DNA from: Escherichia coli
GTDB taxonomy: Bacteria > Pseudomonadota > Gammaproteobacteria > Enterobacterales > Enterobacteriaceae
Assembly: GCF_003334335.1 (NCBI RefSeq)
Contig: NZ_QOWQ01000051.1
Reading direction: 5' to 3' (one strand)
Length of the DNA stretch: 21,033 nt
Shown here: positions 1 through 19,711 of the stretch, piece by piece
Layout: the number at the start of each line of letters is the position of its first letter
Position numbering within the stretch: position 1 is the stretch's first letter
Made by a program: the position numbers and the translations under genes
Notes under the pieces: generated by a model
Databases searched by the model: none
What the model was told of the DNA's origin: nothing
The model's input: the letters and a program-made list of their open reading frames with translations, nothing else

Positions 1-171
1 TCCATAAATTAACCTTCATTTGATGCTGGATTGAACATATCAAAATCAGGCAATTACACAAATCTATGTACAGGCTCGCCATGGACAGAAACTACCTGGC
101 GTCAGTCCTTGCGGGGAGCGGGCTTTCGTAGTAATACCCCGACTCTCCCCGTCCTTAAACACAACCCCCAC

Positions 172-942
172 TCACCACAACCTAAACTCATCCGCATCCT
201 GCCATGCCGGAAACTTTTCTCTATATTCCCGCAATGCTGCCATCGACAGCTCCGCATCAATGCGCGTTGCCTGATGCGCGTCGGCAGTAGCGATAATCTC
301 TCCTTGCGGATTAATCACCCGGCTGTCACCGCGATAATGGCAGCCGTTGCCATCGCTGCCGACGCGATTGCATCCCGCCACATACGCCTGATTCTCAATC
401 GCGCGGGCCGTCAGCAATGCCTGCCAGTGCAGAGAGCGCGGAGCAGGCCAGTTGGCGACGTACAGGGCGAGGTCATAATCGTTGAGATTGCGCGACCACA
501 CAGGAAAACGTAAGTCGTAGCACACCAGCGGCAAAATACGCCAGCCGCGCCATTCCACAATCACTCGCGCATTGCCCGCTTTATAATGTAGATGCTCATC
601 TGCCATGCGGAACAGATGACGCTTATCATAAAAATGTACCGTGCCGCCCGGCTCAACCAGCAAAAAGCGGTTAACCGAACCAGACTCCGTTTGTAATGCA
701 ACACTGCCTGCAATCAGCGCATTGCACTGCTGCGCCTTAGCTGTCATCCAGTTCACTACGTCATCTTGTGCTAGCGACGAAGCTGCCGCTTCCATGGCAA
801 AGCCGCTGGTAAACATCTCCGGTAGAACGATCACATCGCGCCCGGTAATACCTTCCAGTTGACGATCAAAATGACGCAGGTTGGCAGGACCATCCATCCA
901 CACCAGTGGTTGCTGCAAAAGCGTAATCTTCAAACCAGGCAC
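172..942 (-). CDS. yafV: Carbon-nitrogen hydrolase (nitrilase superfamily), omega-amidase-like YafV
   Basis: Track ORF 172..951 (259 aa) begins at a TTG; a GTG three codons in (942) gives MPGLK... and 256 aa, the length I recall for K-12 YafV. Nitrilase-family Glu/Lys/Cys context is visible (VLPEMF, YDKRHLF, LVCYDLRFP). Start choice is from memory. Confidence 0.85.
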   Translation of the reverse strand: MPGLKITLLQQPLVWMDGPANLRHFDRQLEGITGRDVIVLPEMFTSGFAMEAAASSLAQDDVVNWMTAKAQQCNALIAGSVALQTESGSVNRFLLVEPGGTVHFYDKRHLFRMADEHLHYKAGNARVIVEWRGWRILPLVCYDLRFPVWSRNLNDYDLALYVANWPAPRSLHWQALLTARAIENQAYVAGCNRVGSDGNGCHYRGDSRVINPQGEIIATADAHQATRIDAELSMAALREYREKFPAWQDADEFRLW

Positions 943-1095
943 GGTGTACAACTCCTTTATGCGAAGGGTTTTATAACTTTAACACCTTATCAGGCAGTTG
1001 CCTTAGCGCAGAATAAATTGATAACAAATGCTGATATTGGAAATATCTGATTTGCAAATTATCGTGTTATCGCCAGGCTTTAGGAGGTTAATAAC

Positions 1096-1569
1096 ATGGG
1101 CAGGATAAGCTCGGGAGGAATGATGTTTAAGGCAATAACGACAGTCGCCGCTCTGGTCATCGCCACCAGTGCAATGGCGCAGGATGATTTAACCATTAGC
1201 AGCCTTGCAAAGGGCGAAACCACCAAAGCTGCATTTAATCAGATGGTACAAGGGCATAAGCTGCCTGCCTGGGTGATGAAAGGCGGTACTTATACTCCCG
1301 CACAAACCGTAACGTTGGGAGATGAGACGTATCAGGTGATGAGCGCGTGCAAACCGCATGACTGTGGCTCGCAACGTATCGCTGTGATGTGGTCCGAGAA
1401 ATCTAATCAGATGACGGGGCTGTTCTCGACTATTGATGAGAAAACGTCGCAAGAGAAACTCACCTGGCTGAATGTGAACGATGCGCTTTCGATTGATGGT
1501 AAAACGGTGTTGTTCGCGGCGTTGACCGGCAGCCTGGAAAACCATCCGGATGGCTTTAATTTTAAATAA
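1096..1569 (+). CDS. ivy: Inhibitor of vertebrate (C-type) lysozyme, periplasmic
   Basis: 157 aa ORF with an N-terminal signal peptide (…ATSAMAQDD) and the CKPHDC loop motif characteristic of Ivy. Strong SD AGGAGG at 1083-1088, 7 nt upstream of the ATG. Confidence 0.9.
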   Translation: MGRISSGGMMFKAITTVAALVIATSAMAQDDLTISSLAKGETTKAAFNQMVQGHKLPAWVMKGGTYTPAQTVTLGDETYQVMSACKPHDCGSQRIAVMWSEKSNQMTGLFSTIDEKTSQEKLTWLNVNDALSIDGKTVLFAALTGSLENHPDGFNFK

Positions 1570-1583
1570 TTAGCGGATAAAGA

Positions 1584-1605
1584 AACGGAGCCTTTCGGCT
1601 CCGTT
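1584..1605. terminator. Bidirectional rho-independent terminator hairpin between convergent ivy and fadE
   Basis: Perfect 9-bp stem aacggagcc / ggctccgtt with a tttc loop, lying between the ivy stop (1567-1569) and the fadE stop (1612-1614). Flanked by T-rich runs on both strands (attcattt on plus, tctttat on minus). Confidence 0.55.
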
Positions 1606-1611
1606 ATTCAT

Positions 1612-4056
1612 TTACGCGGCTTCAACTTTCCGCACTTTCTCCGGCAACTTTACCGGCTTCGTCGCCAGCTCTTCCGGATCAAAGTCATCAACGTTAATAC
1701 TGCGCAGACGGCTTTCTTCAGCTTTCACCAGAATAGCGGCTTCATCTTTATCAATCAGCCCCTTCACCAGCGCGTTGTGCGCCAGTTCATCCAGACGGGT
1801 AAACGGCAGGTTTTTACCCAGCTCTTTACAGATCCGCTGATGAATTGGGTCGGCGGCAATCACATCCACCAGCGCCTCTTCCAGCAAGCCAACCGGATTA
1901 TGCTCGCTCGGCGTCAGGTACTGACCGCGACCAATGCGGGAACGGGTGGCGTTCGGCACTTGTAAAATCTTCGCCACTTTATGATCCAGCTTGTCAGAAG
2001 GTGCCAGATAATGACGTCCGGTCGGGAAGATCACCACATTCAGCAGCCCGGCAACCACGCGGTTCGGGAAGTTTTGCAGTAAATCATCCATCGCCTGTTC
2101 AGCCTGATACAGCGCATCTTGTACGCCCCAGTGCACCAGCGGCAGGTCGGCTTCATTACGGCCTTCGTCGTCATAACGCTTCAGCACGGCAGAGGCGAGG
2201 TAGAGCTGGCTTAAAATATCCCCCAGACGGGCCGAGATGCGCTCGCGACGTTTCAGGCTGCCGCCCAGCACTGCCATCGAGACATCAGAAAGCAGGGCGA
2301 GGTTGGCGCTCAGGCGGTTCAGGTGCTGATAGTAGCGTTTAGTGGCATCGCCGGTTGGCGTGCTGCTGGTTAAACCGCGCGTCAGGCCCAGCCAGAAGCT
2401 GCGAACTTTGTTGCTACCGACGTGACCGATATGTTTGAACAACAGTTTATCGAACGCGTTGACGTCATTGTTCTTCGCCGCTTCCATCTCTTCCAGCACG
2501 TACGGATGGCAACGAATCGCTCCTTGTCCGAAGATCATCATGCTGCGGGTCAGAATGTTAGCCCCTTCAACGGTGATGGCAATCGGTGCGCCCTGGTAAG
2601 CACGCGCCAGGAAGTTGCTTTGCCCGAGCATAATGCCTTTACCGCCGGTAATATCCATCGCATCAATAATCGACTGCTGCCCGCGGTGGGTACAGTGATA
2701 CTTAACGATAGCCGACAGCACGGCAGGTTTTTCGCCGAGCATAATGCCGTAGGTAATCAGCGATGCCGCAGCATCCATCACGTAGGCATTACCGGCAATA
2801 CGCGCCAGCGGCTCTTCAATCCCTTCCATCTTACCAATAGAGATTTTGAACTGACGGCGAATGTGAGCATACGCGCCGGTTGCCAGCGCTACCGATTTCA
2901 CGCCGCCGGTTGAGTTGGAAGGCAGGGTGATGCCGCGGCCTACCGAGAGGCACTCCACCAGCATCCGCCAGCCTTGCCCGGCCATTTTCGGCCCGCCGAT
3001 GATGTAATCGATCGGCACGAAGACATCTTTACCGCGCGTCGGTCCGTTCTGGAACGGTACGTTCAGCGGGAAGTGGCGACGACCAATTTCCACGCCCGGC
3101 GTGGTGGTTGGGATCAGCGCACAGGTAATGCCTAAATCTTCTGCACCGCCGAGTAATTTTTCCGGGTCGGAGAGTTTAAACGCCAGCCCAAGCACGGTCG
3201 CAATCGGTGCCAGCGTAATGTAGCGTTTGTTCCAGGTCAGACGCATCCCCAGCACCTGCTGGCCCTGCCATTCGCCCATGCAGACAATCCCGGTGTCCGG
3301 AATCGCGCCCGCATCGGAACCCGCTTCCGGGCTGGTCAGTGCAAAGCAGGGGATCTCCTGACCACGCGCCAGACGCGGCAGATAGTGATCTTTCTGCTCG
3401 TCAGTGCCGTAATGTTGCAACAGTTCGCCCGGGCCTAATGAGTTTGGCACGCCGACGGTAATCGCCAGGATCCCGCTCACGCCGGAGAGTTTTTGCAGCA
3501 CGCGAGACTGGGCATAAGCCGAGAACTCCAGCCCGCCGTACTCTTTTTTGATGATCATCGCGAAGAAACGATGCTCTTTAAGGTACGCCCACAACTCCGG
3601 CGGCAGATCCGCCAGCTCATGGGTGATCTGGAAATCATTCGCCATCCGGCAGGCTTCTTCTACCGGGCCGTCGAGAAACGCTTGCTCTTCGGCGGTCAGG
3701 CGCGGCTGCGGATAGTTATGCAGCTTTTTCCAGTCCGGCTTGCCCTGGAACAAGTCGCCCTCCCACCAGGTGGTGCCCGCATCAATCGCTTCTTTCTCAG
3801 TGCGCGACATCGGCGGCATCACCTTACGGAAACCGCGAAATACCGGCGCGGAAATCATCGACTTACGCATAGGCGCAAAGTTAAATGGCACGAGGATAAT
3901 GGCCAGAGGCACCAGTACCCACGCCGACCACAGACCAGCAACGCCGAGGGCGGCTGTCCAGGCGAGCAAAATCAGACTGCTGATAAATAAGCTCACGCGG
4001 TGATAGAACAACGCGCCGAGCAGGACAACCGTAGCGAGAATACTCAAAATCATCAT
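1612..4056 (-). CDS. fadE: Acyl-CoA dehydrogenase FadE (fatty acid beta-oxidation)
   Basis: Track ORF is 840 aa from 4134. The ATG at 4056 ([14 protein letters not shown]…) gives 814 aa, matching the FadE length I recall, with N-terminal hydrophobic segments and an acyl-CoA dehydrogenase body. An AGGGG Shine-Dalgarno lies just upstream of 4056. Confidence 0.9.
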
Positions 4057-4077
4057 AACGAAAAGCCCCTTACTTGT

Positions 4078-4094
4078 AGGAGGTCTGACCACTT
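4078..4094 (-). promoter_or_regulatory. Candidate FadR operator upstream of fadE
   Basis: On the minus strand this reads AAGTGGTCAGACCTCCT, close to the FadR box consensus with a TGGTC-N-GACC core. It sits about 30 nt upstream of the fadE start. Motif match by eye only. Confidence 0.4.
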
Positions 4095-4295
4095 GTGATG
4101 ATATGGTTGTAGTGGATGTAAAAACATTTAGCAATATGTTTACAATATAATTACAACAAAGCTCACATTGTTGCTGTTTTTATCCGCACTTCAGGTCAAA
4201 AAGTCCTGGTCATAGCACCTGCCCGTACTTCTCGCTTTTGGCGGTATCCGGTACACTGCATTTTGTCTATTACATTTATGCTGAAGGATATCCTC

Positions 4296-4874
4296 ATGTA
4301 CCAGGATCTTATTCGTAACGAACTGAACGAAGCGGCGGAAACGCTGGCTAACTTTTTAAAAGATGACGCCAATATTCACGCCATTCAGCGCGCGGCGGTC
4401 CTGTTAGCAGACAGCTTTAAAGCCGGTGGCAAAGTGCTTTCCTGCGGCAACGGCGGTTCCCATTGCGACGCTATGCACTTTGCCGAAGAGTTGACCGGTC
4501 GCTACCGTGAAAACCGTCCGGGCTACCCGGCGATTGCTATTTCTGACGTTAGTCATATTTCCTGCGTCGGTAATGATTTCGGTTTCAATGATATTTTCTC
4601 CCGCTACGTTGAAGCGGTAGGTCGCGAAGGCGATGTACTGCTGGGGATCTCCACCTCCGGTAACTCTGCAAACGTGATCAAAGCGATCGCAGCGGCGCGT
4701 GAGAAGGGAATGAAAGTGATCACCCTGACCGGTAAAGACGGCGGCAAAATGGCTGGCACGGCGGATATCGAAATTCGCGTACCGCACTTTGGTTATGCCG
4801 ACCGCATTCAGGAGATTCACATTAAAGTGATCCATATCCTGATCCAGTTGATTGAAAAAGAGATGGTTAAGTAA
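4296..4874 (+). CDS. gmhA: Sedoheptulose-7-phosphate isomerase (SIS domain), LPS core heptose biosynthesis
   Basis: Track ORF starts at 4263; the internal ATG at 4296 ([10 protein letters not shown]…) gives 192 aa, the length I recall for GmhA/LpcA. SD-like AAGGAT precedes it. Confidence 0.9.
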
Positions 4875-4880
4875 GTCTGG

Positions 4881-5017
4881 CGTAGGCCGGATAAGACGTT
4901 TACGCCGCATCCGGCATTTGTGCGCTGATGCCTGATGCGACGCTGACGCGTCTTATCATGCCTACAAATCTGTACGCGAACCGTAGGCCGAATAATGCGT
5001 TCACGCCGCATCCGACC
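4881..5017. repeat. REP/BIME cluster (three REP palindromes) between gmhA and yafJ
   Basis: Imperfect palindromes of the E. coli REP type: gtaggccggataagacgtttacgccgcatccggca, gcctgatgcgacgctgacgcgtcttatcatgcctac and a third copy at 4981-5016. Confidence 0.8.
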
Positions 5018-5079
5018 TGAAAATTCTTAAATCAATCTTCGCCGGGGGCCATGCGCTCCCGCTGTTGTGGAGGTTACCC

Positions 5080-5847
5080 ATGTGCGAATTGCTCGGGATG
5101 AGCGCCAACGTCCCTACCGATATCTGCTTTAGTTTCACCGGGCTTGTACAGCGTGGTGGTGGAACCGGGCCACATAAAGATGGCTGGGGCATTACCTTTT
5201 ACGAAGGTAAAGGCTGTCGCACATTTAAAGATCCACAACCCAGCTTTAATTCCCCCATCGCCAAACTTGTCCAGGACTACCCGATAAAATCCTGTTCGGT
5301 GGTGGCTCATATTCGCCAGGCTAATCGGGGCGAGGTGGCGCTGGAAAATACTCACCCATTTACCCGCGAGTTATGGGGGCGTAACTGGACTTATGCCCAT
5401 AACGGACAACTGACGGGCTACAAATCACTGGAAACCGGCAACTTCCGCCCGGTAGGCGAAACCGACAGCGAAAAAGCCTTCTGCTGGCTCCTGCATAAAT
5501 TAACGCAGCGTTACCCGCGCACACCGGGCAACATGGCGGCGGTATTTAAATATATCGCCTCACTGGCGGATGAACTGCGGCAGAAGGGCGTTTTCAACAT
5601 GCTGCTTTCGGACGGGCGCTATGTAATGGCGTATTGCTCGACTAATTTACACTGGATCACCCGCCGCGCGCCGTTTGGCGTGGCAACGTTGCTGGATCAG
5701 GATGTGGAAATCGACTTCAGCTCGCAGACCACACCGAATGATGTGGTCACGGTGATTGCAACACAGCCGCTGACGGGCAATGAAACCTGGCAAAAGATTA
5801 TGCCAGGCGAATGGCGCTTATTTTGCCTCGGGGAGCGTGTAGTTTGA
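5080..5847 (+). CDS. yafJ: Class II (Ntn-type) glutamine amidotransferase-like protein YafJ
   Basis: Track ORF starts at 5065; the ATG at 5080 gives MCELLGM… with Cys at position 2, the class II GATase nucleophile arrangement, and 255 aa. GGAGG SD at 5069-5073. Confidence 0.85.
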
Positions 5848-6558
5848 TGCCAGTTGTGGCTGCACAACTTCGTGGCTTAACGGCTTGCTGACCACGTAAC
5901 GACCATTGACCACAGAAACGGTTGGTGGCTTACGGGTTTGCTCAAAGTAGTCGTAACCCGGCTTCAGTTGCTCCCAGAAGTCCTTAAAGTTGGAATATTT
6001 ATGGCGCTTCATATTGGCGTCGGTCATGCGGAACGGGTAAATACTCACTTGCACGCTCGGCTGACCAAACACCAGCGCACCAGTAACGAACTGGAATATC
6101 TCATCAATACCCTGATTGGTCATTGCGTAGCAGCCGATGGAAACACAATCGCCGTGGATCATCAGGTATTTCCCTTCATAACCATGCGCACGGTCATAGG
6201 CATTGGGGAAACCAATATTAATCGCTTTGTAGTAACGGCTGTCTGGTTTTAACTGATTACGCTGGACGCTATAAAACCCTTCCGGGCTTTTGAAATCGCC
6301 CTGACGCTGTTTTGGCCCTAAGCCGCCGGAATATTTACAGATTTTATAGCTGTCGAGCAGTTGATATTGCTCGCCCATTTTGACGTAGAGATCGAGCGTA
6401 CGTTCTTCCTTGAAGATCTGGATGTAGACAGGGGATCCCATCAACTGCTGCTTATACTCTTTGCTCACAGGCGTGGTAGAGCTACTGCTGCCCAGCAAAC
6501 CGGCAAATGAAACGCACGGGATCAACAACATCGCAAGAATTAATGCGATTTTACGCAT
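5818..6558 (-). CDS. yafK: L,D-transpeptidase-fold (YkuD) periplasmic protein YafK
   Basis: 246 aa with an N-terminal signal peptide and the YkuD catalytic region [12 protein letters not shown]. Its 3' end overlaps the 3' end of convergent yafJ by 30 bp. Confidence 0.85.
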
Positions 6559-6713
6559 ACTGCTTATTCCTTGATAAAACGGTTACACACGCCAGGACGG
6601 CAAAATGGATCCCAAATCGGAATAGTCTGGATTTGGAAGGCTCACATTATCACCAAAAGAGTTTTACGCAAGCCTGTCGGCGCAGGGTTTACAAATTTCA
6701 TCGGAAGCGGGCT

Positions 6714-6992
6714 TTACCCAAAGAGCGCCGCGTGAGTTCCAGTTCTCTCAAATCGTAAAAGTTTATCGGTAAGTTTGTAAATCAGGATCCAGTCCGGTTC
6801 GACATGAGCATCGCGATAACCTTTCCATGAACCTTGCAGCGGGTGGTCTTTATAAACAGCTGGAAGCGGTAAAGTATTATTGATAAGAAGCGTCATAAGA
6901 TATTTCAATTTATTCATATCCTTATGACGCTTTTGTGCAAGTTTTACATCCTTTGAATATTGTCCCGAGTATTCAATATCCCTTTGAATCAT
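6714..6992 (-). CDS. yafQ: YafQ toxin (RelE-fold, ribosome-dependent mRNA interferase)
   Basis: 92 aa ORF MIQRDIEYSGQYSKDVKLAQKRHKD… lying 2 nt downstream of dinJ on the same strand. Recognised from memory as YafQ. Confidence 0.9.
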   Translation of the reverse strand: MIQRDIEYSGQYSKDVKLAQKRHKDMNKLKYLMTLLINNTLPLPAVYKDHPLQGSWKGYRDAHVEPDWILIYKLTDKLLRFERTGTHAALFG

Positions 6993-6994
6993 AT

Positions 6995-7255
6995 TTAAAT
7001 TCCTAATTTATCAAATAAATCATCGGCGTCTTTGGCCTTATGAACATCAATGCCAGCTTCGCTGTTTTTGATTGATTGAATGGTTAATTGATTAGGCTCG
7101 CGTAAATCAAACGGCAATGCCTTTTCACGCGCGACCTTTGTGAGGGTTATGCGAACCAGGTCAGAGATGGTCAGCCCCATCCCGGCCAGTACGTCCGCTG
7201 CCTGATTCTTCAGATCTTCATCGATTCGGGCGCGAACAAACGCGTTAGCAGCCAT
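6995..7255 (-). CDS. dinJ: DinJ antitoxin (RHH DNA-binding)
   Basis: 86 aa ORF MAANAFVRARIDEDLKNQAADVLAGMGLTISDLVRI…, immediately upstream of yafQ with a LexA box in its promoter. Confidence 0.9.
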   Translation of the reverse strand: MAANAFVRARIDEDLKNQAADVLAGMGLTISDLVRITLTKVAREKALPFDLREPNQLTIQSIKNSEAGIDVHKAKDADDLFDKLGI

Positions 7256-7271
7256 TGGGGTATCTCCTGTG

Positions 7272-7287
7272 CTGTATATTTATTCAG
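7272..7287 (-). promoter_or_regulatory. LexA (SOS) box in the dinJ promoter
   Basis: Plus strand ctgtatatttattcag; minus strand CTGAATAAATATACAG, fitting the CTG-N10-CAG SOS box pattern. Located 17-32 nt upstream of the dinJ start codon. Confidence 0.7.
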
Positions 7288-7464
7288 CTTGAATTGTAGC
7301 TCAAATGAGCAACAGCGACAATCCATGAGTAATTTAATAAACGGATGTTTTTACATAATTAACTGAAATATATATGTTAATTTTATAATAATGGTTTATT
7401 AAGTTTGTTCAGAAACGATCCGGGATACACTGCAACATTAAAGCATGACCAGCCATTATTGAGT

Positions 7465-8214
7465 ATGTCCTTGCCGTCGATTCCATCCTTTGTATTGTCG
7501 GGATTACTGTTGATTTGTTTGCCGTTTTCTTCATTTGCCAGCGCCACCACATCACATATCTCTTTCAGCTACGCCGCCCGCCAGCGGATGCAAAACCGTG
7601 CGCGTTTATTAAAACAGTACCAAACTCATCTGAAAAAGCAGGCCAGCTATATTGTGGAAGGCAATGCCGAAAGCAAAAGGGCGCTACGCCAGCACAACCG
7701 GGAGCAGATAAAACAGCATCCAGAATGGTTTCCTGCTCCGCTCAAGGCGAGTGACAGACGCTGGCAGGCGCTGGCGGAAAACAACCACTTTTTAAGCAGC
7801 GACCATCTGCATAACATTACCGAAGTGGCGATTCACCGCCTGGAGCAGCAGCTTGGCAAGCCTTACGTCTGGGGCGGTACGCGGCCTGATAAAGGCTTTG
7901 ACTGTAGCGGGTTGGTTTTTTATGCCTACAACAAGATCCTTGAGGCTAAGCTCCCGCGCACGGCCAATGAGATGTACCACTATCGCCGGGCAACGATTGT
8001 GGCGAACAACGACCTGCGCCGGGGAGATTTGCTGTTTTTCCATATCCACAGCCGCGAGATAGCCGATCATATGGGCGTGTATTTGGGCGATGGGCAATTT
8101 ATCGAGTCGCCACGTACCGGCGAAACCATTCGGATAAGCCGATTAGCCGAACCTTTCTGGCAGGACCATTTTTTGGGCGCGCGCAGGATTTTGACGGAAG
8201 AGACGATTTTGTAG
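7465..8214 (+). CDS. yafL: NlpC/P60-family putative peptidoglycan endopeptidase lipoprotein YafL
   Basis: Track ORF starts at a TTG (7405); the ATG at 7465 gives 249 aa with a signal/lipobox-like N-terminus. NlpC/P60 catalytic Cys context GFDCSGLVFYAY and downstream His are present. Confidence 0.8.
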   Translation: MSLPSIPSFVLSGLLLICLPFSSFASATTSHISFSYAARQRMQNRARLLKQYQTHLKKQASYIVEGNAESKRALRQHNREQIKQHPEWFPAPLKASDRRWQALAENNHFLSSDHLHNITEVAIHRLEQQLGKPYVWGGTRPDKGFDCSGLVFYAYNKILEAKLPRTANEMYHYRRATIVANNDLRRGDLLFFHIHSREIADHMGVYLGDGQFIESPRTGETIRISRLAEPFWQDHFLGARRILTEETIL

Positions 8215-8296
8215 GACGGATAAGGCGTTTACGCCGCATCCGGCAGTTGTACGCAGGTGCCTGATGCGACGCTGGCGCGTCTTATCATGCCTACGA
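8211..8296. repeat. REP pair (BIME) between yafL and rayT
   Basis: gtaggacggataaggcgtttacgccgcatccggca overlaps the yafL stop, followed by gcctgatgcgacgctggcgcgtcttatcatgcctac. Confidence 0.8.
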
Positions 8297-8389
8297 GCCC
8301 GCGAATATTTGCGAGCCGCTTTCCCGATATAAAACAACCTCATTGCCAACCTTTCCTTTTCTTCTTACCGTTGAGAAAAAGGAGTCGCC

Positions 8390-8887
8390 ATGTCTGAATA
8401 TCGTCGTTATTACATCAAGGGGGGAACATGGTTTTTCACGGTGAATTTACGAAATCGTCGAAGCCAACTTTTGACCACCCAGTACCAGATGCTCCGTCAC
8501 GCCATTATTAAAGTTAAGCGAGACAGGCCTTTTGAAATCAACGCCTGGGTCGTTTTGCCAGAGCATATGCACTGTATCTGGACATTACCTGAAGGCGATG
8601 ATGATTTTTCCTCGCGCTGGCGGGAAATTAAAAAGCAATTTACCCATGCTTGTGGATTGAAAAATATCTGGCAACCACGTTTTTGGGAGCACGCCATCCG
8701 CAATACCAAAGATTATAGGCATCATGTTGATTATATTTATATAAATCCAGTAAAGCATGGTTGGGTAAAGCAAGTGAGTGATTGGCCATTCTCAACGTTC
8801 CATCGCGATGTCGCGCGAGGGTTATATCCCATCGATTGGGCGGGGGACGTAACGGATTTTAGTGCCGGGGAGCGTATCATTTCATAA
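8390..8887 (+). CDS. rayT: REP-associated tyrosine transposase RayT (TnpA-REP, IS200/IS605 HUH family)
   Basis: 165 aa with the HUH motif (PEHMHCIW) and a C-terminal Tyr region. REP arrays flank it on both sides, the REPtron arrangement. Confidence 0.85.
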   Translation: MSEYRRYYIKGGTWFFTVNLRNRRSQLLTTQYQMLRHAIIKVKRDRPFEINAWVVLPEHMHCIWTLPEGDDDFSSRWREIKKQFTHACGLKNIWQPRFWEHAIRNTKDYRHHVDYIYINPVKHGWVKQVSDWPFSTFHRDVARGLYPIDWAGDVTDFSAGERIIS

Positions 8888-8890
8888 TTG

Positions 8891-9095
8891 TGCGCAGATG
8901 CCTGATGCGACGCTAGCGCGTCTTATCATGCCTACAAACTTGTGCCGGATCGGTAGGCCGGATAAGGCGTTTATGCCGCATCCGGCAGTTATGCGCAGAT
9001 GCCTGATGCGACGCTGGCGCGTCTTATCATGCCTACAAACTTGTGCCTGAACGGTAGGACGGATAAGGCGTTCACGCCGCATCCGGCAGTTGTGC
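8891..9095. repeat. REP/BIME array (at least four REP palindromes) between rayT and lfhA
   Basis: Alternating copies of gcctgatgcgacgct(a/g)gcgcgtcttatcatgcctac and ggtagg(c/a)cggataaggcgtt(t/c)a(t/c)gccgcatccggca. The array ends 16 nt before the lfhA stop. Confidence 0.85.
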
Positions 9096-9110
9096 ACCAA
9101 TGCTGGATAC

Positions 9111-11204
9111 TTACATCAACGCCCCCATAATCTTCAACTCCAGCTCATCCGGCACTTCGTTATACGACAGCACATGCAGCCCCGGCGCAAACAACCTTGC
9201 ATAACGCGCCAGCAAAGGGCGCAGCTGCGGTGGCACCAGCAGCACCGGGTCTTTCCCCGCCGCTTTCATCTGCTCTTTCACCTGTGGCATCGTACTCTGG
9301 AACTGGTTGAGCATATTCGGATCGACCGGCACGCTGTCGAGCATCACTTTCCCGCCCTGTTGCGCCTGATTCACCACGTTGGTCAGCAGATTTTCCAGCT
9401 CATTATTCAGCGTATACACCGTCAGCTCCTGCTTGCGAACGAACGGATGGGTAATGCTGCGCCGCAATGCCAGGCGCACATCGGCCGCCAGCAGAATATG
9501 ATCTTTCGTCACCGTGCTACTGGCGACCAGCACGGTGGCGATGGTGACGATATCGCGCAGGGAAACGCCTTCGGTCAGCAGCGCCCGGTACACTTTCAGC
9601 AACTGGCTGTAATTGAGCGCCGCGCTCAAATCTTCCGCCAGACGCGGTGCCGTCGACGATAAACGGTTATGCAACTGCGTAATATCATCATAGTTAAACA
9701 AATCAGGAATATAGCTGCGCACAATCTTATTTACATGGGTAGCGATCACGCTGGCGCTGTCGATCACCTGATACCCCATATTCAGCGCCTTCGCTTTCTG
9801 CGCCGCCTGGATCCAGGTGACCGGCATCCCGTACGCCGGGTCGTTCCCCTGCACGCCGTCAATCTCGCCGTAGGTTTCGCTGGAGGGCAGGGCCATCAGT
9901 TTATCCGCCGGAATATCCGCTTCATCAGCCTTTATGCCGTTGATGAAAATGGCGTACTGACTGGGCTTAAGGCGGAAGTTTTCCCGAATGCGGATCTCCG
10001 GCAGCAGCACGCCGTTGCCGTCAGAAATCACCTGCCGCACGCCGCGAATCCGCTGGGTGAGCGGGTTACCCTGTGCTTTGTCCACCAGCGCCACCAGTTT
10101 GTAACCGAGGCTTAAACTGATAGGCTCGATCAGCGGAATGGTTTCCCAACTGACCTGCTGCTCGCTGGTTTCGGTGATGGTGCGGGTCAGCGTTTCGAGG
10201 CTTTTCTCTTCCGCCTCCGCCGCCAGCGGCTGTTTGCTCATCCGCCAGCCGGTAAAACCAAGCAGGGCGCTGAACAGCAAAAACGGCAGGTGCGGCATTC
10301 CCGGTACCACCGCCAGCACGAACATAATCCCGGTGGCGGTGTAGAGCACCGACGGGCTTGCCAGCAGCTGGTTACGCACGTCATGGGCGATATCGCCGTT
10401 GTCGCTGACGCGGGTGACGATAATCGCCGCCGCGGTGGAGAGCAGCAGGGAAGGGATCTGCGCCACCAGGCCGTCGCCGATGGTCATCAGCACATACTGC
10501 TGGAAGGCAGCATCGGCGCTCAGGTTGTATTTGAAGATCCCGATACAGACGCCGCCGATCAGGTTGATCGCCAGAATCATCATCCCGGCGATGGCGTCCC
10601 CGCGCACAAACTTCGATGCCCCGTCCATCGCGCCGTAGAAATCGGCCTCGCTGGCAACATCTTTACGCCGGGTTTGCGCCTGCGCCTGGTTGATCAATCC
10701 GGCGTTAAGATCGGCGTCAATCGCCATCTGTTTGCCGGGCATCGCGTCTAAGGTAAAGCGGGCAGAAACCTCGGAAATACGCTCGGCCCCTTTGGTGACG
10801 ACAATAAAGTTGATGATCATCAGGATGATAAACACCACGAAGCCGACGACAAAGTTGCCGCCGATCACCACCTGACCAAACGACTCAATCACCTTACCCG
10901 CCGCGCCCGCGCCGAGATGCCCGTGCAGCAGCACCACGCGCGTAGAAGCAACGTTAAGCGTCAGGCGCATTAAGGTGGTGATCAGCAAAATGGTCGGGAA
11001 CAGGCTGAATTCCAGCGGTCGTTTCGCCGACACCGCCACCAGCAGCACCATCACCGCCAGCACAATGTTGAAGGTGAACAGAATATCCAGCAGCGCAGGC
11101 GGCAGCGGCAAAATAACCATCGCCAGAATACACAGGATCACCAGCGGCACGCCGAGATTGCCGCCGCGCAGCAGCGCGAGGAACGATTTAGTTGTTTTCG
11201 CCAT
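9111..11204 (-). CDS. lfhA: Flagellar type III export apparatus protein, FlhA homolog (Flag-2 LfhA)
   Basis: 697 aa with N-terminal transmembrane segments and the FHIPEP signature region (VILPLPPALLDILFTFNIVLAVMVLL). A GAGGTG Shine-Dalgarno precedes the ATG. Clearly distinct in sequence from what I recall of E. coli Flag-1 FlhA. Confidence 0.85.
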   Translation of the reverse strand: MAKTTKSFLALLRGGNLGVPLVILCILAMVILPLPPALLDILFTFNIVLAVMVLLVAVSAKRPLEFSLFPTILLITTLMRLTLNVASTRVVLLHGHLGAGAAGKVIESFGQVVIGGNFVVGFVVFIILMIINFIVVTKGAERISEVSARFTLDAMPGKQMAIDADLNAGLINQAQAQTRRKDVASEADFYGAMDGASKFVRGDAIAGMMILAINLIGGVCIGIFKYNLSADAAFQQYVLMTIGDGLVAQIPSLLLSTAAAIIVTRVSDNGDIAHDVRNQLLASPSVLYTATGIMFVLAVVPGMPHLPFLLFSALLGFTGWRMSKQPLAAEAEEKSLETLTRTITETSEQQVSWETIPLIEPISLSLGYKLVALVDKAQGNPLTQRIRGVRQVISDGNGVLLPEIRIRENFRLKPSQYAIFINGIKADEADIPADKLMALPSSETYGEIDGVQGNDPAYGMPVTWIQAAQKAKALNMGYQVIDSASVIATHVNKIVRSYIPDLFNYDDITQLHNRLSSTAPRLAEDLSAALNYSQLLKVYRALLTEGVSLRDIVTIATVLVASSTVTKDHILLAADVRLALRRSITHPFVRKQELTVYTLNNELENLLTNVVNQAQQGGKVMLDSVPVDPNMLNQFQSTMPQVKEQMKAAGKDPVLLVPPQLRPLLARYARLFAPGLHVLSYNEVPDELELKIMGALM

Positions 11205-12327
11205 CCAGTTTAAGCACCTCTTTGGGAATGGAAATATGTCTGTTCAGGGCCGGGCGCGGCTGTGCACCCTCGCGCCAGTGTTTCATTTGCAGGACGTAGG
11301 TCAGAACGTGGGCGATGGCCCGGTAAAGCTGAAACGGAATTTGCTGGTTCACCTGGGTGGTGTAGTAAACCGAGCGCGCCAGTCGCGGGAACTCGACCAC
11401 TTCCACCTGATTCTCAGCGGCGACCTGGCGAATATAGAGGGCGATTTCATCGGTGCCTTTCGCCACCACAAACGGCGCGGCGGCGCGCGACGAGTCATAC
11501 TGCAACGCCACGGCGTAGTGGGTCGGGTTGGTGATCACCACGTTGGCTTTCGGCACCACTTTGCGAATTTGCCCCATCGCCAACTGCCGTTGCAGACGCC
11601 GCACGCGCGCCTTCACTTCCGGCTTGCCTTCCTGGTTTTTATACTCTTCTTTCAGCTCCTGTTTGGTCATCTTCAGCCCTTTGGTAAACAGGGCTTTCGC
11701 CAGCGGCACGTCGATTAACGCAAAGAAGATAAACAGGATGACAAAGTTGCGCATCACGCAGGCGTAGAGCGATAAACCCTCATTCATCGCCAGTTTGAAC
11801 GGTAGCGCCTGCAGGCCGAGAAAGGCGGCAAAGTTATTGTGCAGGCTTACCCACAGCATCACCAGCACCACCACCGACTTCACCGTCATCTTTCCCGTTT
11901 CCGCCAGATGTTCACTGGAAAACAGCCGCCCAATGCCTTTTAACGGGCTGATTTTGCTGAAATCCGGGAGGATTTTTTTCGGCAGAAACAGCCAGCCGCC
12001 GGGCACCAGCGAAGAGAGTAGCGCGGCAGCGGGCATCGGCAGCAAGGTGAGAATAAACTTGCCGAGTATTAACAGGTGATGGCGCAGAAACTGGCCGATC
12101 ACCTCCGGGTTATTAATCTCCTGCGCGTACTGATGCACGCTGATAAAACTCTCGCGCACAAAATCGGCATACCACGGGAAGCTGCTGGAGATCACCACAA
12201 ACGCCGCAAACAGGCTCGCCGCCAGCCCCATATCCTTCGAGCGCGGCAGTTGCCCCTCTTCACGCGCTTTACGCAGCTTTTGCGCCGAGGGTTTTTCTGT
12301 TTTTTCTTCGCTGCTGCTATCCGCCAT
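11188..12327 (-). CDS. lfhB: Flagellar export switch protein, FlhB homolog (Flag-2 LfhB)
   Basis: 379 aa with an FlhB-like N-terminus (…EKTEKPSAQKLRKAREEGQLPRSKD) and the conserved NPTH autocleavage motif (VVITNPTHYAVAL). Its stop overlaps the lfhA start by 17 nt. Confidence 0.85.
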   Translation of the reverse strand: MADSSSEEKTEKPSAQKLRKAREEGQLPRSKDMGLAASLFAAFVVISSSFPWYADFVRESFISVHQYAQEINNPEVIGQFLRHHLLILGKFILTLLPMPAAALLSSLVPGGWLFLPKKILPDFSKISPLKGIGRLFSSEHLAETGKMTVKSVVVLVMLWVSLHNNFAAFLGLQALPFKLAMNEGLSLYACVMRNFVILFIFFALIDVPLAKALFTKGLKMTKQELKEEYKNQEGKPEVKARVRRLQRQLAMGQIRKVVPKANVVITNPTHYAVALQYDSSRAAAPFVVAKGTDEIALYIRQVAAENQVEVVEFPRLARSVYYTTQVNQQIPFQLYRAIAHVLTYVLQMKHWREGAQPRPALNRHISIPKEVLKLDGENN

Positions 12328-13099
12328 AGTGACCTTTCAGCGCGTCGAGTTGCTGCAACACAAAATTCGCCAGATGCAGATAGTGATCCGGCAGGTTGTA
12401 GAGCAGGGTGGCAAAGCAGACCAGCCCCGCCAGCATGTTGATGGGAAAACCGAGTGAAAAAAGGTTCAGCGGCGGCGCAATGCGGTTGAGCAGGCCAAAG
12501 CAGCCCTGCACAATCAGCATGATAAAAGTGGTTGGCAGCGCCAGCAGCGATGCGGACGCCAGCACCCAGCTAAAGGCCAGCGCGATGGTGCGCAGGGTTT
12601 GCGGATGCAGCGCGTTGCCAATCGGCCAGTAGGTAAAGCCCTTATACAGCACACTCACCAGCAGCAGATGCCCGTCCATGGCAAAAAACAGCAGGATCGC
12701 GTAGACGTTGATGAGCTCCGCCAGCACGGTGGTCGATGCGCCACTGCTCGGGTCGTTCATCACCGCCATGCTCATCCCCATATTGAACGAGAGAATTTGC
12801 CCGGCCAGCTGTAGCGCCAGAAACAAAAACTGAAACATCAGCCCGAATAACATGCCCCATAAAATTTGCTCCACCGTCAGGATCAGGCTGTTGAGTGAAA
12901 GCAGGTCGTGGGGAATGGGATGCGGAATTAACGGCGTGATGATGATTGCCAGCGCCAGCGACAAAATAATCCGCACGCGCACGGTCAGGGCGCTGTTATC
13001 CAGCACTGGCACATAGCGCAGAAACGCCATAATGCGCACAAAGGGAAACCACAGCCCCAGCGCCAGATCCATCAGTTGCGTAACGTCGCTTGTGCGCAT
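12317..13099 (-). CDS. lfiR: Flagellar export gate protein, FliR homolog (Flag-2 LfiR)
   Basis: Polytopic membrane protein. The start at 13099 (MRTSDVTQLMDLALG…, 260 aa) sits 2 nt upstream of the lfiQ stop codon; the track offers an upstream start at 13150 (277 aa) that would lie inside lfiQ. Confidence 0.75.
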   Translation of the reverse strand: MRTSDVTQLMDLALGLWFPFVRIMAFLRYVPVLDNSALTVRVRIILSLALAIIITPLIPHPIPHDLLSLNSLILTVEQILWGMLFGLMFQFLFLALQLAGQILSFNMGMSMAVMNDPSSGASTTVLAELINVYAILLFFAMDGHLLLVSVLYKGFTYWPIGNALHPQTLRTIALAFSWVLASASLLALPTTFIMLIVQGCFGLLNRIAPPLNLFSLGFPINMLAGLVCFATLLYNLPDHYLHLANFVLQQLDALKGHYGG

Positions 13100-13100
13100 C

Positions 13101-13373
13101 TTAATGCACCAGCAGGGCGGCCTGGGTAAACAGGTGAATGCAGAGATCATGCAACTGGATAATCATCCATTTGCCGCACACGCCCAGCACCACCAGCGTG
13201 ACAATCAGCCTCGGCAAAAAGCTCAGGGTCTGTTCGTTAATCTGCGTTACCGCCTGGAACACGCTCACCAGCAGGCCGACCAGCAAACTCGGCACCACCA
13301 GTACCGAAACCAGCAAAATCACTACTTTTATGCCGCTGGCGACAATGTCGGCGGCAACGTCTACGGTCAACAT
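13101..13373 (-). CDS. lfiQ: Flagellar export gate protein, FliQ homolog (Flag-2 LfiQ)
   Basis: 90 aa with two hydrophobic helices, placed between the FliP and FliR homologs as in fliPQR operons. Confidence 0.8.
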   Translation of the reverse strand: MLTVDVAADIVASGIKVVILLVSVLVVPSLLVGLLVSVFQAVTQINEQTLSFLPRLIVTLVVLGVCGKWMIIQLHDLCIHLFTQAALLVH

Positions 13374-13375
13374 AA

Positions 13376-14128
13376 TCAGCCCAGCCCCAGCCCGCGAATG
13401 CTGGTGGTGAGCGTGCCGATGGTCAGCGACCAGCCGTCGATCAGCACAAACAGCATCAGCTTAAAGGGCAGCGAAACAATCAGCGGCGACAGCATCATCA
13501 TCCCCATCGCCATCAGTACGCTTGCGACAATCAGGTCGATAACCAGAAACGGGATGTAAATCATAAAGCCAATCTGGAAAGCGGTTTTCAGCTCGCTCAA
13601 CACATAGGCGGGCACCACGATAGAGAGATCCTGGTCGGCGGCATTGCCCTTCGCGCCTCCGATGGTCATGATTTGCGCCATCGCTTTTTTGTCGGTCTGC
13701 GCCAGCATAAAGCGTTTGAGTGGCGTCGCGGCGGTGCTTAACGCATCGGTCAGGGTAATCTGATCGTTTTCGAACGGCACTACTGCGTGGTCGTAAATAT
13801 TGAGCCAGATGGGGCGCATCACCAGCATGGTGAGGGAGAGCGCAATGCCAATCAGAATGCGGTTTGGCGGCGTTTGTTGCAGCCCTAGCGCCTGGCGCAG
13901 CAGCGACAGCACGATAATAAAGCGCGCAAAGCAGGTCATCATCAGCGCCATCGTCGGCAGCAAACCGACGAGGGTCATCAGAATCAGTACCTGAATTTTG
14001 ACGCTGTACTCCTGAGTGTTGCCGTGGGTGACCACGTTAAGCAGCGCAATATCGCCGCCCTGGGCGATTGCCAGCGGCGCAAGCGCCAGCAGCCCAAGGC
14101 CCAGCGTCAGTTGAGTGCGGCGTTTCAT
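13376..14128 (-). CDS. lfiP: Flagellar export gate protein, FliP homolog (Flag-2 LfiP)
   Basis: 250 aa with an N-terminal signal peptide (…LALAPLAIAQ) and a FliP-like transmembrane core. Its start overlaps the lfiN stop by 4 nt. Confidence 0.85.
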   Translation of the reverse strand: MKRRTQLTLGLGLLALAPLAIAQGGDIALLNVVTHGNTQEYSVKIQVLILMTLVGLLPTMALMMTCFARFIIVLSLLRQALGLQQTPPNRILIGIALSLTMLVMRPIWLNIYDHAVVPFENDQITLTDALSTAATPLKRFMLAQTDKKAMAQIMTIGGAKGNAADQDLSIVVPAYVLSELKTAFQIGFMIYIPFLVIDLIVASVLMAMGMMMLSPLIVSLPFKLMLFVLIDGWSLTIGTLTTSIRGLGLG

Positions 14129-14496
14129 GGTGCCAGGTCGTTGATATCGCGGGTGTTAAATTCCAGCACGCGCAGGCCGTACTTCTCGTTGACCACCACC
14201 ACTTCCGCTTTGCCCAGCAGGATATTGTTCACTTTAATATCCAGCGGCTCCCCGGCGAGTTTATCCAGCTCAATCACCGTGTCGTCGTCGATGTTAAGGA
14301 GGTCGGCTAACATGATCTCCACCGACGACACTTCCAGCGTTAAGGTCACCGGAATGCGTTTTAGCAGCGTCATCGAGTCGGAAAAACGGTCTTCCAGGCG
14401 GGTGACCAGCGTTTCAGCGTCGGCGGATTTTGCGACAGGCGCAACTTCATCGGTGAGGCCAAAATCCCCGGCTAAAATATCTTCTTGCTTACTCAT
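14125..14496 (-). CDS. lfiN: Flagellar motor switch / C-ring protein, FliN homolog (Flag-2 LfiN)
   Basis: SpoA-like C-terminal domain (…VTLTLEVSSVEIMLADLLNIDDDTVIELDKLAGEPLDIKVNNILLGKAEVVVV). The start at 14496 (MSKQEDI…) is chosen for coupling to the lfiM stop; the track's longest start is 14556. Confidence 0.75.
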   Translation of the reverse strand: MSKQEDILAGDFGLTDEVAPVAKSADAETLVTRLEDRFSDSMTLLKRIPVTLTLEVSSVEIMLADLLNIDDDTVIELDKLAGEPLDIKVNNILLGKAEVVVVNEKYGLRVLEFNTRDINDLAP

Positions 14497-15340: not shown

Positions 15341-15485
15341 GGCTTACTTTCTCTGCTGTAATGGTATGGGCGATTTTGTGCACGCAAATCCGGCAGTGAC
15401 ACAAGGTGAGGTATTAAATAGAGGGGGAGTGAAAGGGGCAAATTATTAATAGGATGAAAAAATAATTAAATTATTAAAGGGCTAG

Positions 15486-15602
<117 letters not shown>

Positions 15603-15726
15603 ATGGATAACTCATTGTTTACCATAAAATAATATTTTTATTATCGTTTAATTCGAACTTGTTAATCCCGCCGGTGATACGCTTCACAATATCCTGTTTT
15701 CTGTCGCTACTGATATCGTTCACCCT

Positions 15727-16713: not shown

Positions 16714-16727
16714 CCCGGAAGTTAAAA

Positions 16728-17069
16728 ATGAGCATTACCACAATCAACAGCACCATGCAGGCGCAAATCATGCAGGACGTGCAGCGGATGCAGGCCAACG
16801 CCCAGGCGCCGGTGCTACCCGCCATGACCTTCAGTTCCACAGACCCGGACGTGTCGTTTAACCGCATTATGTACGGCGCGCTTGGTCATGTTGATCAGTT
16901 CCAGCAGGTGGCGGAGCTGCAGCAAACGGCTGTCGACACGGGCAAAAGTGATGACCTGGCAGGTGCGATGATCGCCAGCCAGCAGGCGTCGCTCTCTTTC
17001 TCCGCGCTGGTGCAGGTGCGCAATAAAATCGCCACCGGGTTTAACGACCTGATGAGTATGTCGATCTAA
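16728..17069 (+). CDS. lfiE: Flagellar hook-basal body protein, FliE homolog (Flag-2 LfiE)
   Basis: 113 aa small protein directly upstream of the FliF homolog, with a FliE-like C-terminal region (…ASQQASLSFSALVQVRNKIATGFNDLM). Confidence 0.75.
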   Translation: MSITTINSTMQAQIMQDVQRMQANAQAPVLPAMTFSSTDPDVSFNRIMYGALGHVDQFQQVAELQQTAVDTGKSDDLAGAMIASQQASLSFSALVQVRNKIATGFNDLMSMSI

Positions 17070-17073
17070 CCCT

Positions 17074-19708: not shown

Positions 19709-19711
19709 CCC

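What the first reader, a model, noticed from the sequence alone, without database searches (positions are those of the whole stretch)
6714..7287. dinJ-yafQ toxin-antitoxin module with an SOS box
A compact antitoxin-toxin pair with a near-consensus LexA box in the promoter links this module to DNA damage. It is a known system, recorded here for completeness.
Basis: established knowledge. Interest (0 to 1): 0.3.

Follow-up and report, generated by a model that had tools for sequence, protein, structure and literature searches.

The report
E. coli dinJ-yafQ with LexA box

Summary
Window 6995-7255 (-) encodes DinJ (86 aa) and 6714-6992 (-) encodes YafQ (92 aa). Both are 100% identical to the crystallised E. 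coli proteins (PDB 4Q2U, 4ML0, 4ML2) and to MG1655.

A CTG-N10-CAG box sits at 7270-7289 (core 7272-7287). I scored it with a LexA matrix built from 19 boxes that I verified in NC_000913.3. It scores 21.6 bits, which is:
- the best site in the window;
- higher than the held-out dinB box (15.1 bits);
- not reached by any of 200 random windows.

The box starts 3 nt after the predicted -10 and ends 14 nt before the ATG.

The phrase "links the module to DNA damage" needs a caveat. According to the papers I could read, LexA binds the promoter in vitro and a lexA deletion gives 2-3-fold derepression. Ciprofloxacin did not induce the promoter.

The comparison with other species adds two points. A different palindrome overlapping the -10 (GTTGCTCATTTGAGCTAC, 7296-7313) is conserved in nearly all DinJ homologue promoters and is probably the DinJ operator. 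The LexA box is found only in the Escherichia and Salmonella versions.

The whole cassette is absent from about 39% of complete E. coli genomes.

Verdict: already known, low interest.

The parts
6714..6992 (-). yafQ: 92-aa RelE/YafQ-family ribosome-dependent mRNA endoribonuclease toxin. The gene is intact here.
   Evidence: ORF. TIGR00053 YafQ family scores 120.2 bits against a cut-off of 87.25. 100% identical over 92 aa to PDB 4ML2_A. Catalytic residues H50, H63, D67, H87 and F91 are all present (residue roles from PMC4652777).
6995..7255 (-). dinJ: 86-aa RelB/DinJ-family ribbon-helix-helix antitoxin and autorepressor.
   Evidence: ORF. TIGR02384 RelB_DinJ scores 83.4 bits against a cut-off of 45.65. 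100% identical over 86 aa to PDB 4Q2U_A. Annotated dinJ (b0226) in NC_000913.3.
7264..7268 (-). Shine-Dalgarno AGGAG of dinJ, 8 nt before the ATG.
   Evidence: Read from the sequence. A GGAG motif at this position is conserved in the alignment of homologue promoters.
7270..7289 (.). LexA (SOS) box. Gene strand AGCTGAATAAATATACAGCA; plus strand TGCTGTATATTTATTCAGCT. The CTG-N10-CAG core is 7272-7287. Equivalent to K-12 coordinates 246517-246536.
   Evidence: 21.6 bits and heterology index 6.69 on my 19-site matrix; top of the window; 0 of 200 random windows reach it. It outscores the held-out dinB box at 15.1 bits. It is kept in the E. coli alleles sampled and is at the same position in Salmonella dinJ.
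7293..7298 (-). Predicted -10 hexamer TACAAT of the dinJ promoter.
   Evidence: Consensus scan, 9 of 12 matches with a 17-nt spacer. TACAnT is conserved in homologue promoters. The transcription start was not mapped here.
7296..7313 (-). Conserved inverted repeat GTTGCTCA-TT-TGAGCTAC, which fills the promoter spacer and overlaps the -10. Inferred DinJ / DinJ-YafQ operator.
   Evidence: A matching repeat (GT.GCTCA..TGAGC.AC) lies 18-40 nt upstream of the ATG in 25 of 29 genome loci. It is also present in the Salmonella, Klebsiella and Y. enterocolitica loci. Alignment. The literature says DinJ or DinJ-YafQ represses by binding a single inverted repeat that overlaps promoter elements (PMC12301738, PMC6529426). 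I could not read the exact published operator sequence.
7316..7321 (-). Predicted -35 hexamer TTGTCG of the dinJ promoter.
   Evidence: Consensus scan. TTGa.. is conserved at this position in the alignment.
6699..7528 (.). 830-bp variable segment carrying the whole module: yafQ, dinJ, promoter, LexA box, the dinJ-yafL spacer and the first 64 nt of yafL. TA-less E. coli strains have an unrelated 224 bp here instead.
   Evidence: Homology to strain PT109 stops at 6698 and resumes at 7529. PT109 has no gene annotated between dpaA and yafL. 5424 of 5426 genomes match the flank, but only 3325 cover at least 80% of the query.

Best explanation
[quoted passage not shown] One sigma-70 promoter (-35 TTGTCG, -10 TACAAT) transcribes dinJ, then yafQ 2 nt later. 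DinJ is a ribbon-helix-helix dimer. It neutralises YafQ by direct binding in a DinJ2-YafQ2 heterotetramer. Alone or in that complex it also represses its own promoter. It most likely does so at the conserved palindrome GTTGCTCATTTGAGCTAC, which overlaps the -10. When DinJ is degraded, free YafQ binds the ribosome and cleaves mRNA at in-frame AAA-A/G lysine codons, stopping translation. A second operator, a good LexA box, lies 3 nt downstream of the -10 over the expected transcription start, so LexA acts as an added co-repressor. Both repressors block the same promoter. LexA cleavage alone would therefore give only weak derepression while DinJ is still bound. That fits the small or undetectable SOS induction reported. 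What is shown here: gene and protein identity, catalytic residues, box strength, element positions and conservation patterns. What comes from the literature: toxin activity, neutralisation, DinJ and LexA binding. What is inferred: which palindrome is the DinJ operator, and the two-repressor logic.
For: - Identity: 100% match to PDB DinJ and YafQ chains. 100% DNA identity to MG1655 over window 78-10814, and an exact substring match of 6560-7600 in NC_000913.3. Annotated yafQ/dinJ in RefSeq records. NCBIfam scores above the curated cut-offs.
- Catalytic residues H50, H63, D67, H87 and F91 are present, as defined in PMC4652777.
- LexA box: 21.6 bits. It lies inside the 9.0-30.0 bit leave-one-out range of 19 verified boxes, above the dinB control, and is never reached in 200 random windows.
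- Layout: -35, 17 nt, -10, 3 nt, box, SD, ATG.
- Conservation: the box is identical in an O157:H7 allele and closer to consensus in strain LR-06 (24.8 bits). Salmonella dinJ has a LexA box (18.4 bits) in the same register, 14 nt from the ATG. Its CTG/CAG triplets are kept while the N10 has diverged.
- The palindrome overlapping the -10 is conserved in 25 of 29 loci.
- Literature: YafQ specificity and ribosome dependence (PMC7781912, PMC4652777). Single-inverted-repeat repression by DinJ or DinJ-YafQ without conditional cooperativity (PMC12301738). LexA binds the dinJ promoter (PMC4996492, citing Ruangprasert 2014). dinJ-lacZ is 2-3-fold higher in a lexA deletion strain (PMC6015884).
Against: - SOS induction of dinJ-yafQ was not seen with ciprofloxacin (PMC2826370). 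It is described as not observed experimentally (PMC4996492, citing Fernandez de Henestrosa 2000 and Armalyte 2012).
- The LexA box is absent from most DinJ homologue promoters: Yersinia, Xenorhabdus, Photorhabdus, Pectobacterium and Klebsiella. LexA control is therefore not intrinsic to the family.
- The transcription start site was not mapped here, and I could not read the primary operator paper. The assignment of the DinJ operator to 7296-7313 rests on conservation.
- The Salmonella induction figure (7.8-fold, PMC8072944) is confounded by read-through from the RtcR/sigma-54 rsr promoter (PMC9879122).
Confidence: 0.9

Rival explanations
1. The LexA box is a site that binds LexA in vitro but has no meaningful regulatory effect in vivo. 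dinJ-yafQ expression is set only by DinJ autorepression and DinJ proteolysis.
For: There was no significant activation of a dinJ promoter-gfp fusion by ciprofloxacin, although sulA, tisAB and symE responded (PMC2826370). PMC4996492 states that induction after DNA damage has not been seen. Most homologue promoters work without any LexA box.
Against: The box scores higher than the authentic dinB box and lies over the expected transcription start. It is maintained across the E. coli alleles sampled, one of which is closer to consensus. The LexA-contact triplets are kept in Salmonella while the spacer has diverged, which is the pattern expected under selection for LexA binding. A chromosomal dinJ-lacZ fusion is 2-3-fold higher without LexA (PMC6015884).
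Confidence: 0.25
2. The 7270-7289 palindrome is primarily a second DinJ / DinJ-YafQ binding repeat, and its match to the LexA consensus is incidental.
For: PMC12301738 mentions 'adjacent operator repeats' at dinJ, so more than one inverted repeat has been described in the region. The box is itself an inverted repeat (GCTG-N10-CAGC) next to the conserved one.
Against: The same paper says repression needs only a single inverted repeat. The 7270-7289 palindrome is missing from 28 of 29 genome loci whose DinJ proteins are 51-85% identical, while the other palindrome is retained. The two palindromes share no sequence. The Salmonella counterpart keeps exactly CTG...CAG with a different N10. A 21.6-bit match was not reached in 200 random windows.
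Confidence: 0.08
3. The CTG-N10-CAG match is a chance product of an AT-rich intergenic region.
For: The dinJ-yafL spacer is AT-rich, and AT-rich DNA inflates scores for the TATATATATA core. Weaker partial matches do occur elsewhere in the window, for example 8733-8752 at 16.1 bits without the left CTG.
Against: 0 of 200 composition-matched random windows reach 21.6 bits. No non-training site in 160 kb of MG1655 reaches it. The position relative to the -10 is conserved in Salmonella.
Confidence: 0.01

Closest known systems
E. coli K-12 dinJ-yafQ (b0226-b0225), type II toxin-antitoxin system; structures PDB 4Q2U, 4ML0, 4ML2
   Same: Everything. The DNA from 6560 to 7600 is an exact substring of NC_000913.3. 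The proteins are 100% identical. The neighbours dpaA (yafK) and yafL are the same.
   Different: Only the wider context differs. The window comes from a strain that is not K-12. Past 10814 it carries an intact lateral-flagella (Flag-2) cluster, where K-12 has the lfhA'-lafU deletion followed by dinB.
Salmonella enterica dinJ-yafQ, downstream of the rsr-yrlBA-rtcBA RNA-repair operon
   Same: DinJ is 84% identical. The promoter layout is the same: conserved palindrome, CACAAT, 3 nt, LexA box AACTGTATAGAGACACAGTA (18.4 bits), CAGGAG, and a 14-nt gap to the ATG. PMC8072944 lists it as an SOS-box gene induced 7.8-fold by nalidixic acid.
   Different: It sits at a different chromosomal site, between rtcA and malT. 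It is also transcribed by read-through from an RtcR/sigma-54 promoter (PMC9879122). The N10 of its box differs.
E. coli relBE (RelB-RelE)
   Same: It has a ribbon-helix-helix antitoxin and a ribosome-dependent RelE-fold toxin. The antitoxin gene comes first, and the operator overlaps the -10 (PMC12301738). YafQ also matches TIGR02385 RelE_StbE.
   Different: relBE needs two inverted repeats and shows conditional cooperativity, while dinJ needs a single repeat and shows none (PMC12301738). relBE has no LexA box (my own knowledge, not tested here). YafQ is specific for AAA-A/G codons (PMC7781912).
SOS-linked toxin modules of E. coli: yafNO in the dinB operon, symE/symR, tisB/istR, hokE
   Same: Each is a toxin locus with a LexA box in or near its promoter (PMC2826370, PMC2814082).
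   Different: Those loci are clearly induced by DNA damage. [quoted passage not shown] In dinJ-yafQ a second repressor, DinJ, shares the promoter.

Membership tests
[quoted passage not shown] | Two small adjacent co-oriented genes, antitoxin first, with a tiny or no gap | tested here: met
   dinJ is 6995-7255 and yafQ is 6714-6992, both on the minus strand, with a 2-nt gap.
[quoted passage not shown] | The antitoxin belongs to the RelB/DinJ ribbon-helix-helix family | tested here: met
   TIGR02384 scores 83.4 bits against a cut-off of 45.65. 100% identical to 4Q2U chain A.
[quoted passage not shown] | The toxin belongs to the YafQ family and has its catalytic residues | tested here: met
   TIGR00053 scores 120.2 bits against a cut-off of 87.25. 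100% identical to 4ML2 chain A. H50, H63, D67, H87 and F91 are present (PMC4652777).
[quoted passage not shown] | An autoregulatory palindromic operator overlapping the promoter | tested here: met
   GTTGCTCATTTGAGCTAC at 7296-7313 overlaps the -10 and is conserved in 25 of 29 loci. Binding itself was not testable here. The literature supports a single inverted repeat (PMC12301738).
[quoted passage not shown] | The toxin arrests growth and the cognate antitoxin neutralises it | not testable with these tools
   Published for the identical K-12 proteins (PMC7781912, PMC4652777, PMC4996492).
LexA (SOS) regulon of E. coli | A CTG-N10-CAG box whose score falls in the range of authentic LexA sites | tested here: met
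   21.6 bits and heterology index 6.69. The leave-one-out range of the 19 verified sites is 9.0-30.0 bits. The held-out dinB box scores 15.1 bits.
LexA (SOS) regulon of E. coli | The box is placed so that bound LexA blocks RNA polymerase, overlapping the promoter or transcription start | tested here: met
   The box begins 3 nt downstream of the predicted -10 and ends 14 nt before the ATG. The promoter is predicted, not mapped.
LexA (SOS) regulon of E. coli | LexA protein binds the site | not testable with these tools
   Reported in vitro by Ruangprasert 2014, as cited in PMC4996492 and PMC7781912. I could not read the primary paper.
LexA (SOS) regulon of E. coli | Transcription rises on DNA damage or LexA inactivation | not testable with these tools
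   The literature conflicts. Ciprofloxacin did not induce the promoter (PMC2826370). A dinJ-lacZ fusion was 2-3-fold higher in a lexA deletion strain (PMC6015884).
LexA (SOS) regulon of E. coli | The box is conserved in orthologous promoters | tested here: inconclusive
   It is kept in the E. coli alleles sampled and in one Salmonella locus, and is half-degenerate in a second Salmonella locus. It is absent from 28 other genome loci and from the Klebsiella and Y. enterocolitica loci.

The most novel reading that the evidence does not exclude
The LexA box is a late addition found only in the Escherichia/Salmonella branch of dinJ promoters. It sits between the -10 and the ribosome-binding site of an older promoter controlled solely by DinJ, and the leader there is about 7-11 nt longer than in most other genera. 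The result would be a 'two-key' promoter. It would open fully only when LexA is cleaved (DNA damage) and DinJ is degraded (proteolytic stress) at the same time. This would reconcile the reports that LexA binds with the reports that DNA damage alone does not induce the operon. My data show the restricted distribution and the layout. The AND-gate behaviour is untested.
Probability: 0.35. Interest if true: 0.3.

Novelty: already known. Interest (0 to 1): 0.1.

Why it matters
It matters little. dinJ-yafQ and its LexA box have been in the literature since the 1990s-2000s, and the sequence here is the K-12 allele itself. What can be taken from this work is modest:
- The annotation of this part of the window is settled.
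- The functional claim of SOS control should be quoted with its caveat.
- The comparison separates a family-wide DinJ operator from a LexA box restricted to the Escherichia and Salmonella versions. That suggests a simple test for why SOS induction has been hard to see.

Tried and rejected
- I planned to use the dinB LexA box as an in-window positive control. This failed because the window diverges from K-12 after 10814 and does not contain dinB. I used the dinB box in the MG1655p locus L001 instead.
- I tried to read the primary papers: Ruangprasert 2014 (PMC4110269), Wade 2005 (PMC1276735), Armalyte 2012 (PMC3294823) and Hu 2012 (PMC7261204). None is held. Statements about LexA and DinJ binding therefore come second-hand from papers that cite them.
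- A search for DinJ + LexA + operator + EMSA found nothing.
- After I concluded that the LexA box was Escherichia-specific. I rejected this once Salmonella loci, which the exact-peptide genome scan had missed, showed the same box position.
- No intrinsic terminator was found after yafQ.
- The inverted-repeat tool, run at seed 6 on 7240-7420, reported only AT-rich repeats in the yafL-proximal spacer. It did not report either operator.
- Secondary matrix hits at 8733-8752, 13153-13172 and 4110-4129 (14.6-16.1 bits) lack one CTG/CAG half-site. I set them aside as probable chance matches.

Full report
**What is at the coordinates**

The minus strand of window 6714-7255 carries two ORFs separated by 2 nt. 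One is 6995-7255 (86 aa) and the other is 6714-6992 (92 aa).
- The 86-aa protein matches NCBIfam TIGR02384 (RelB/DinJ antitoxin) at 83.4 bits against a cut-off of 45.65.
- The 92-aa protein matches TIGR00053 (YafQ family toxin) at 120.2 bits against a cut-off of 87.25.
- Both are 100% identical over their full length to crystallised E. coli proteins: DinJ in 4Q2U/4ML0, and YafQ in 4ML2.
- The YafQ residues shown to carry out acid-base catalysis and mRNA positioning (H50, H63, D67, H87, F91; PMC4652777) are all present.

At the DNA level, window 6560-7600 is an exact substring of NC_000913.3. The window-to-K-12 offset is +239,247, so:
- yafQ is 245961-246239;
- dinJ is 246242-246502;
- the LexA box is 246517-246536.

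The neighbours are dpaA (yafK) and yafL, as in K-12.

**The LexA box**

- I wrote down 19 classical E. coli LexA boxes from memory: recA, lexA (two), uvrA/ssb, uvrB, uvrD, sulA, umuDC, recN (three), ruvAB, dinD, dinG, dinI, polB, ftsK, yebG and sbmC.
- I then fetched the corresponding MG1655 regions. Every 20-mer is present exactly, upstream of the named gene.
- dinJ and dinB were left out of the matrix.

Results of the scan:

| Test | Result |
|---|---|
| Score of 7270-7289 (TGCTGTATATTTATTCAGCT) | 21.6 bits, heterology index 6.69 on this matrix |
| Rank in the window | Best of 42,028 positions and strands (mean -31 bits) |
| 200 first-order Markov random windows | None reaches it; their maxima average 10.1 bits, highest 18.8 |
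| Leave-one-out range of the 19 training sites | 9.0-30.0 bits |
| Held-out dinB box in locus L001 | 15.1 bits |
| 160 kb of MG1655 DNA | Every other site of 18 bits or more is a training box; strongest non-training site 17.8 bits |

The core CTGTATATTTATTCAG (7272-7287) differs from CTGTATATATATACAG at 2 of 16 positions.

**Promoter anatomy**

On the gene strand the upstream region reads:

TTGTCG (7321-7316), 17 nt, TACAAT (7298-7293), tca, AGCTGAATAAATATACAGCA (7289-7270), c, AGGAG (7268-7264), 8 nt, ATG (7255).

The box starts 3 nt after the predicted -10, so it covers the expected transcription start. This is the usual place for a functional LexA operator. The promoter is a consensus prediction. 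I did not map the start site.

**Comparison with other species**

I retrieved 30 genome loci encoding DinJ homologues, plus Salmonella, Klebsiella and Yersinia enterocolitica loci found through protein hits. Two patterns emerge.

1. *A palindrome other than the LexA box is conserved across the family.* The pattern is GT.GCTCA-nn-TGAGC.AC. It overlaps the TACAnT -10 and lies 18-40 nt from the ATG in 25 of 29 genome loci. These run from Yersinia, Xenorhabdus, Photorhabdus and Pectobacterium out to distant metagenome-assembled genomes. In the window it is GTTGCTCATTTGAGCTAC at 7296-7313. The literature says that DinJ or DinJ-YafQ represses by binding a single inverted repeat overlapping promoter elements, without conditional cooperativity (PMC12301738, PMC6529426). 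I therefore infer that this palindrome is the DinJ operator.

2. *The LexA box has a narrow distribution.* CTG-N10-CAG is missing from all 28 non-Escherichia genome loci, and from the Klebsiella and Y. enterocolitica loci. I first read this as Escherichia-specific. The Salmonella loci corrected that:
   - The Salmonella dinJ between rtcA and malT has AACTGTATAGAGACACAGTA (18.4 bits) in exactly the same register, 14 nt from the ATG. Its CTG and CAG are kept while the N10 has diverged.
   - A second Salmonella locus has a half-degenerate version (17.0 bits).
   - In Escherichia the palindrome-to-ATG distance is 40 nt. It is 27-33 nt in all but two of the other loci (24 and 18 nt), so the leader is longer where the box sits.

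**Variation within E. coli**

The promoter is present in 3323 of 5426 complete genomes, and 2720 of the matching records are at least 99% identical. Among the variants I fetched:
- An O157:H7 allele keeps the box unchanged.
- Strain LR-06 has AGCTGTATAAATATACAGCA, which is closer to consensus (24.8 bits).
- Strain EC96 has an ISKox3 element inserted inside the box.

**Does the box link the module to DNA damage?**

- PMC4996492 says that LexA binds the dinJ promoter, but that induction after DNA damage has not been seen.
- PMC6015884 found a chromosomal dinJ-lacZ fusion about 2-3-fold higher in a lexA deletion strain.
- PMC8072944 lists Salmonella dinJ as induced 7.8-fold by nalidixic acid. However, PMC9879122 shows that this locus is also transcribed from the upstream RtcR/sigma-54 promoter, so the figure is confounded.

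The layout offers a simple reconciliation, which is inference only. Two independent repressor sites sit on one promoter, so removing LexA alone leaves DinJ in place.

**Mechanism**

Under steady growth, the DinJ2-YafQ2 complex holds the toxin inactive, and the DinJ ribbon-helix-helix dimer shuts the promoter. LexA adds a second block. Loss of DinJ by proteolysis frees YafQ. YafQ then binds the ribosome and cuts mRNA at in-frame AAA-A/G codons (PMC7781912, PMC4652777). All of this is established for the identical K-12 proteins. Nothing in the window departs from it.

**Context and side observations**

- The window is not from K-12 itself. It is identical to MG1655 only over 78-10814. After that it continues into an intact lateral-flagella (Flag-2) cluster, where K-12 has a deletion followed by dinB.
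- The whole module sits on an 830-bp segment (6699-7528). This includes its promoter, the LexA box and the first 64 nt of yafL. About 39% of complete E. coli genomes have an unrelated 224 bp there instead.
- In the three non-identical alleles with the locus intact that I fetched, yafQ is a pseudogene while dinJ is intact.

**Verdict**

The finding is correct and was correctly labelled as known. Novelty: already known. Interest: low (0.1). The only mildly new element is the comparative split between a family-wide DinJ operator and a LexA box shared only by the Escherichia and Salmonella versions.

Noticed in passing
window 78-10814 versus 10815-21033 (and 1-77): The window is 100% identical to K-12 MG1655 only over 78-10814. 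After 10814 it continues into an intact Flag-2 lateral-flagella cluster: full-length lfhA/flhA at 9111-11204, then flhB, fliR, fliQ and fliP homologues. K-12 has the lfhA'-lafU deletion and then dinB at that point. The source strain is therefore not K-12, and dinB is not in the window. The first 77 bases also do not match MG1655p.
   Followed up: partly
window 6699-7528; locus L002 3140-3363: The dinJ-yafQ module is a presence/absence polymorphism. 5424 of 5426 complete E. coli genomes match the dpaA-side flank, but only 3325 cover at least 80% of the query (3323 carry the dinJ promoter). In TA-less strains such as PT109, an unrelated 224 bp replaces the 830-bp segment, which includes the first 64 nt (signal-peptide end) of yafL.
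   Followed up: partly
loci L047 (O157:H7 F8492), L048 (LR-06), L050 (FUJ80154): In the three non-identical E. coli alleles with the locus intact that I fetched, yafQ is annotated as a pseudogene (frameshift or internal stop) while dinJ is intact. This suggests frequent decay of the toxin with retention of the antitoxin/repressor. The window's yafQ is intact.
   Followed up: no
locus L049 (E. coli EC96), about 1433-1500: An ISL3-family ISKox3 element is inserted inside the LexA box. It separates the dinJ coding sequence from its promoter and conserved palindrome.
   Followed up: no
locus L048 (E. coli LR-06), position equivalent to window 7284: A natural single-base variant turns the box into AGCTGTATAAATATACAGCA. 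This is closer to the LexA consensus (24.8 versus 21.6 bits).
   Followed up: no
loci L052/L053 (Salmonella enterica), 490-600: Salmonella dinJ-yafQ lies between rtcA and malT, not at the E. coli site. Its promoter nevertheless has the same order and spacing: palindrome, -10, LexA box, SD, ATG. This points to movement of the whole cassette with its regulatory region.
   Followed up: partly
window 4882-5014, 8211-8294, 8888-9103, 15519-15603: Several copies of an 80-130-bp repeat (81-95% identical to each other) flank rayT and recur between lpcA and yafJ and inside the Flag-2 region. They look like REP/BIME arrays, which would fit the adjacent REP-associated transposase gene rayT (8390-8887).
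   Followed up: no
window 8733-8752, 13153-13172, 4110-4129: These are secondary LexA-matrix hits of 14.6-16.1 bits. They lie inside rayT, in the Flag-2 cluster and at the fadE start. Each lacks one intact CTG or CAG half-site, so they are probably chance matches.
   Followed up: no
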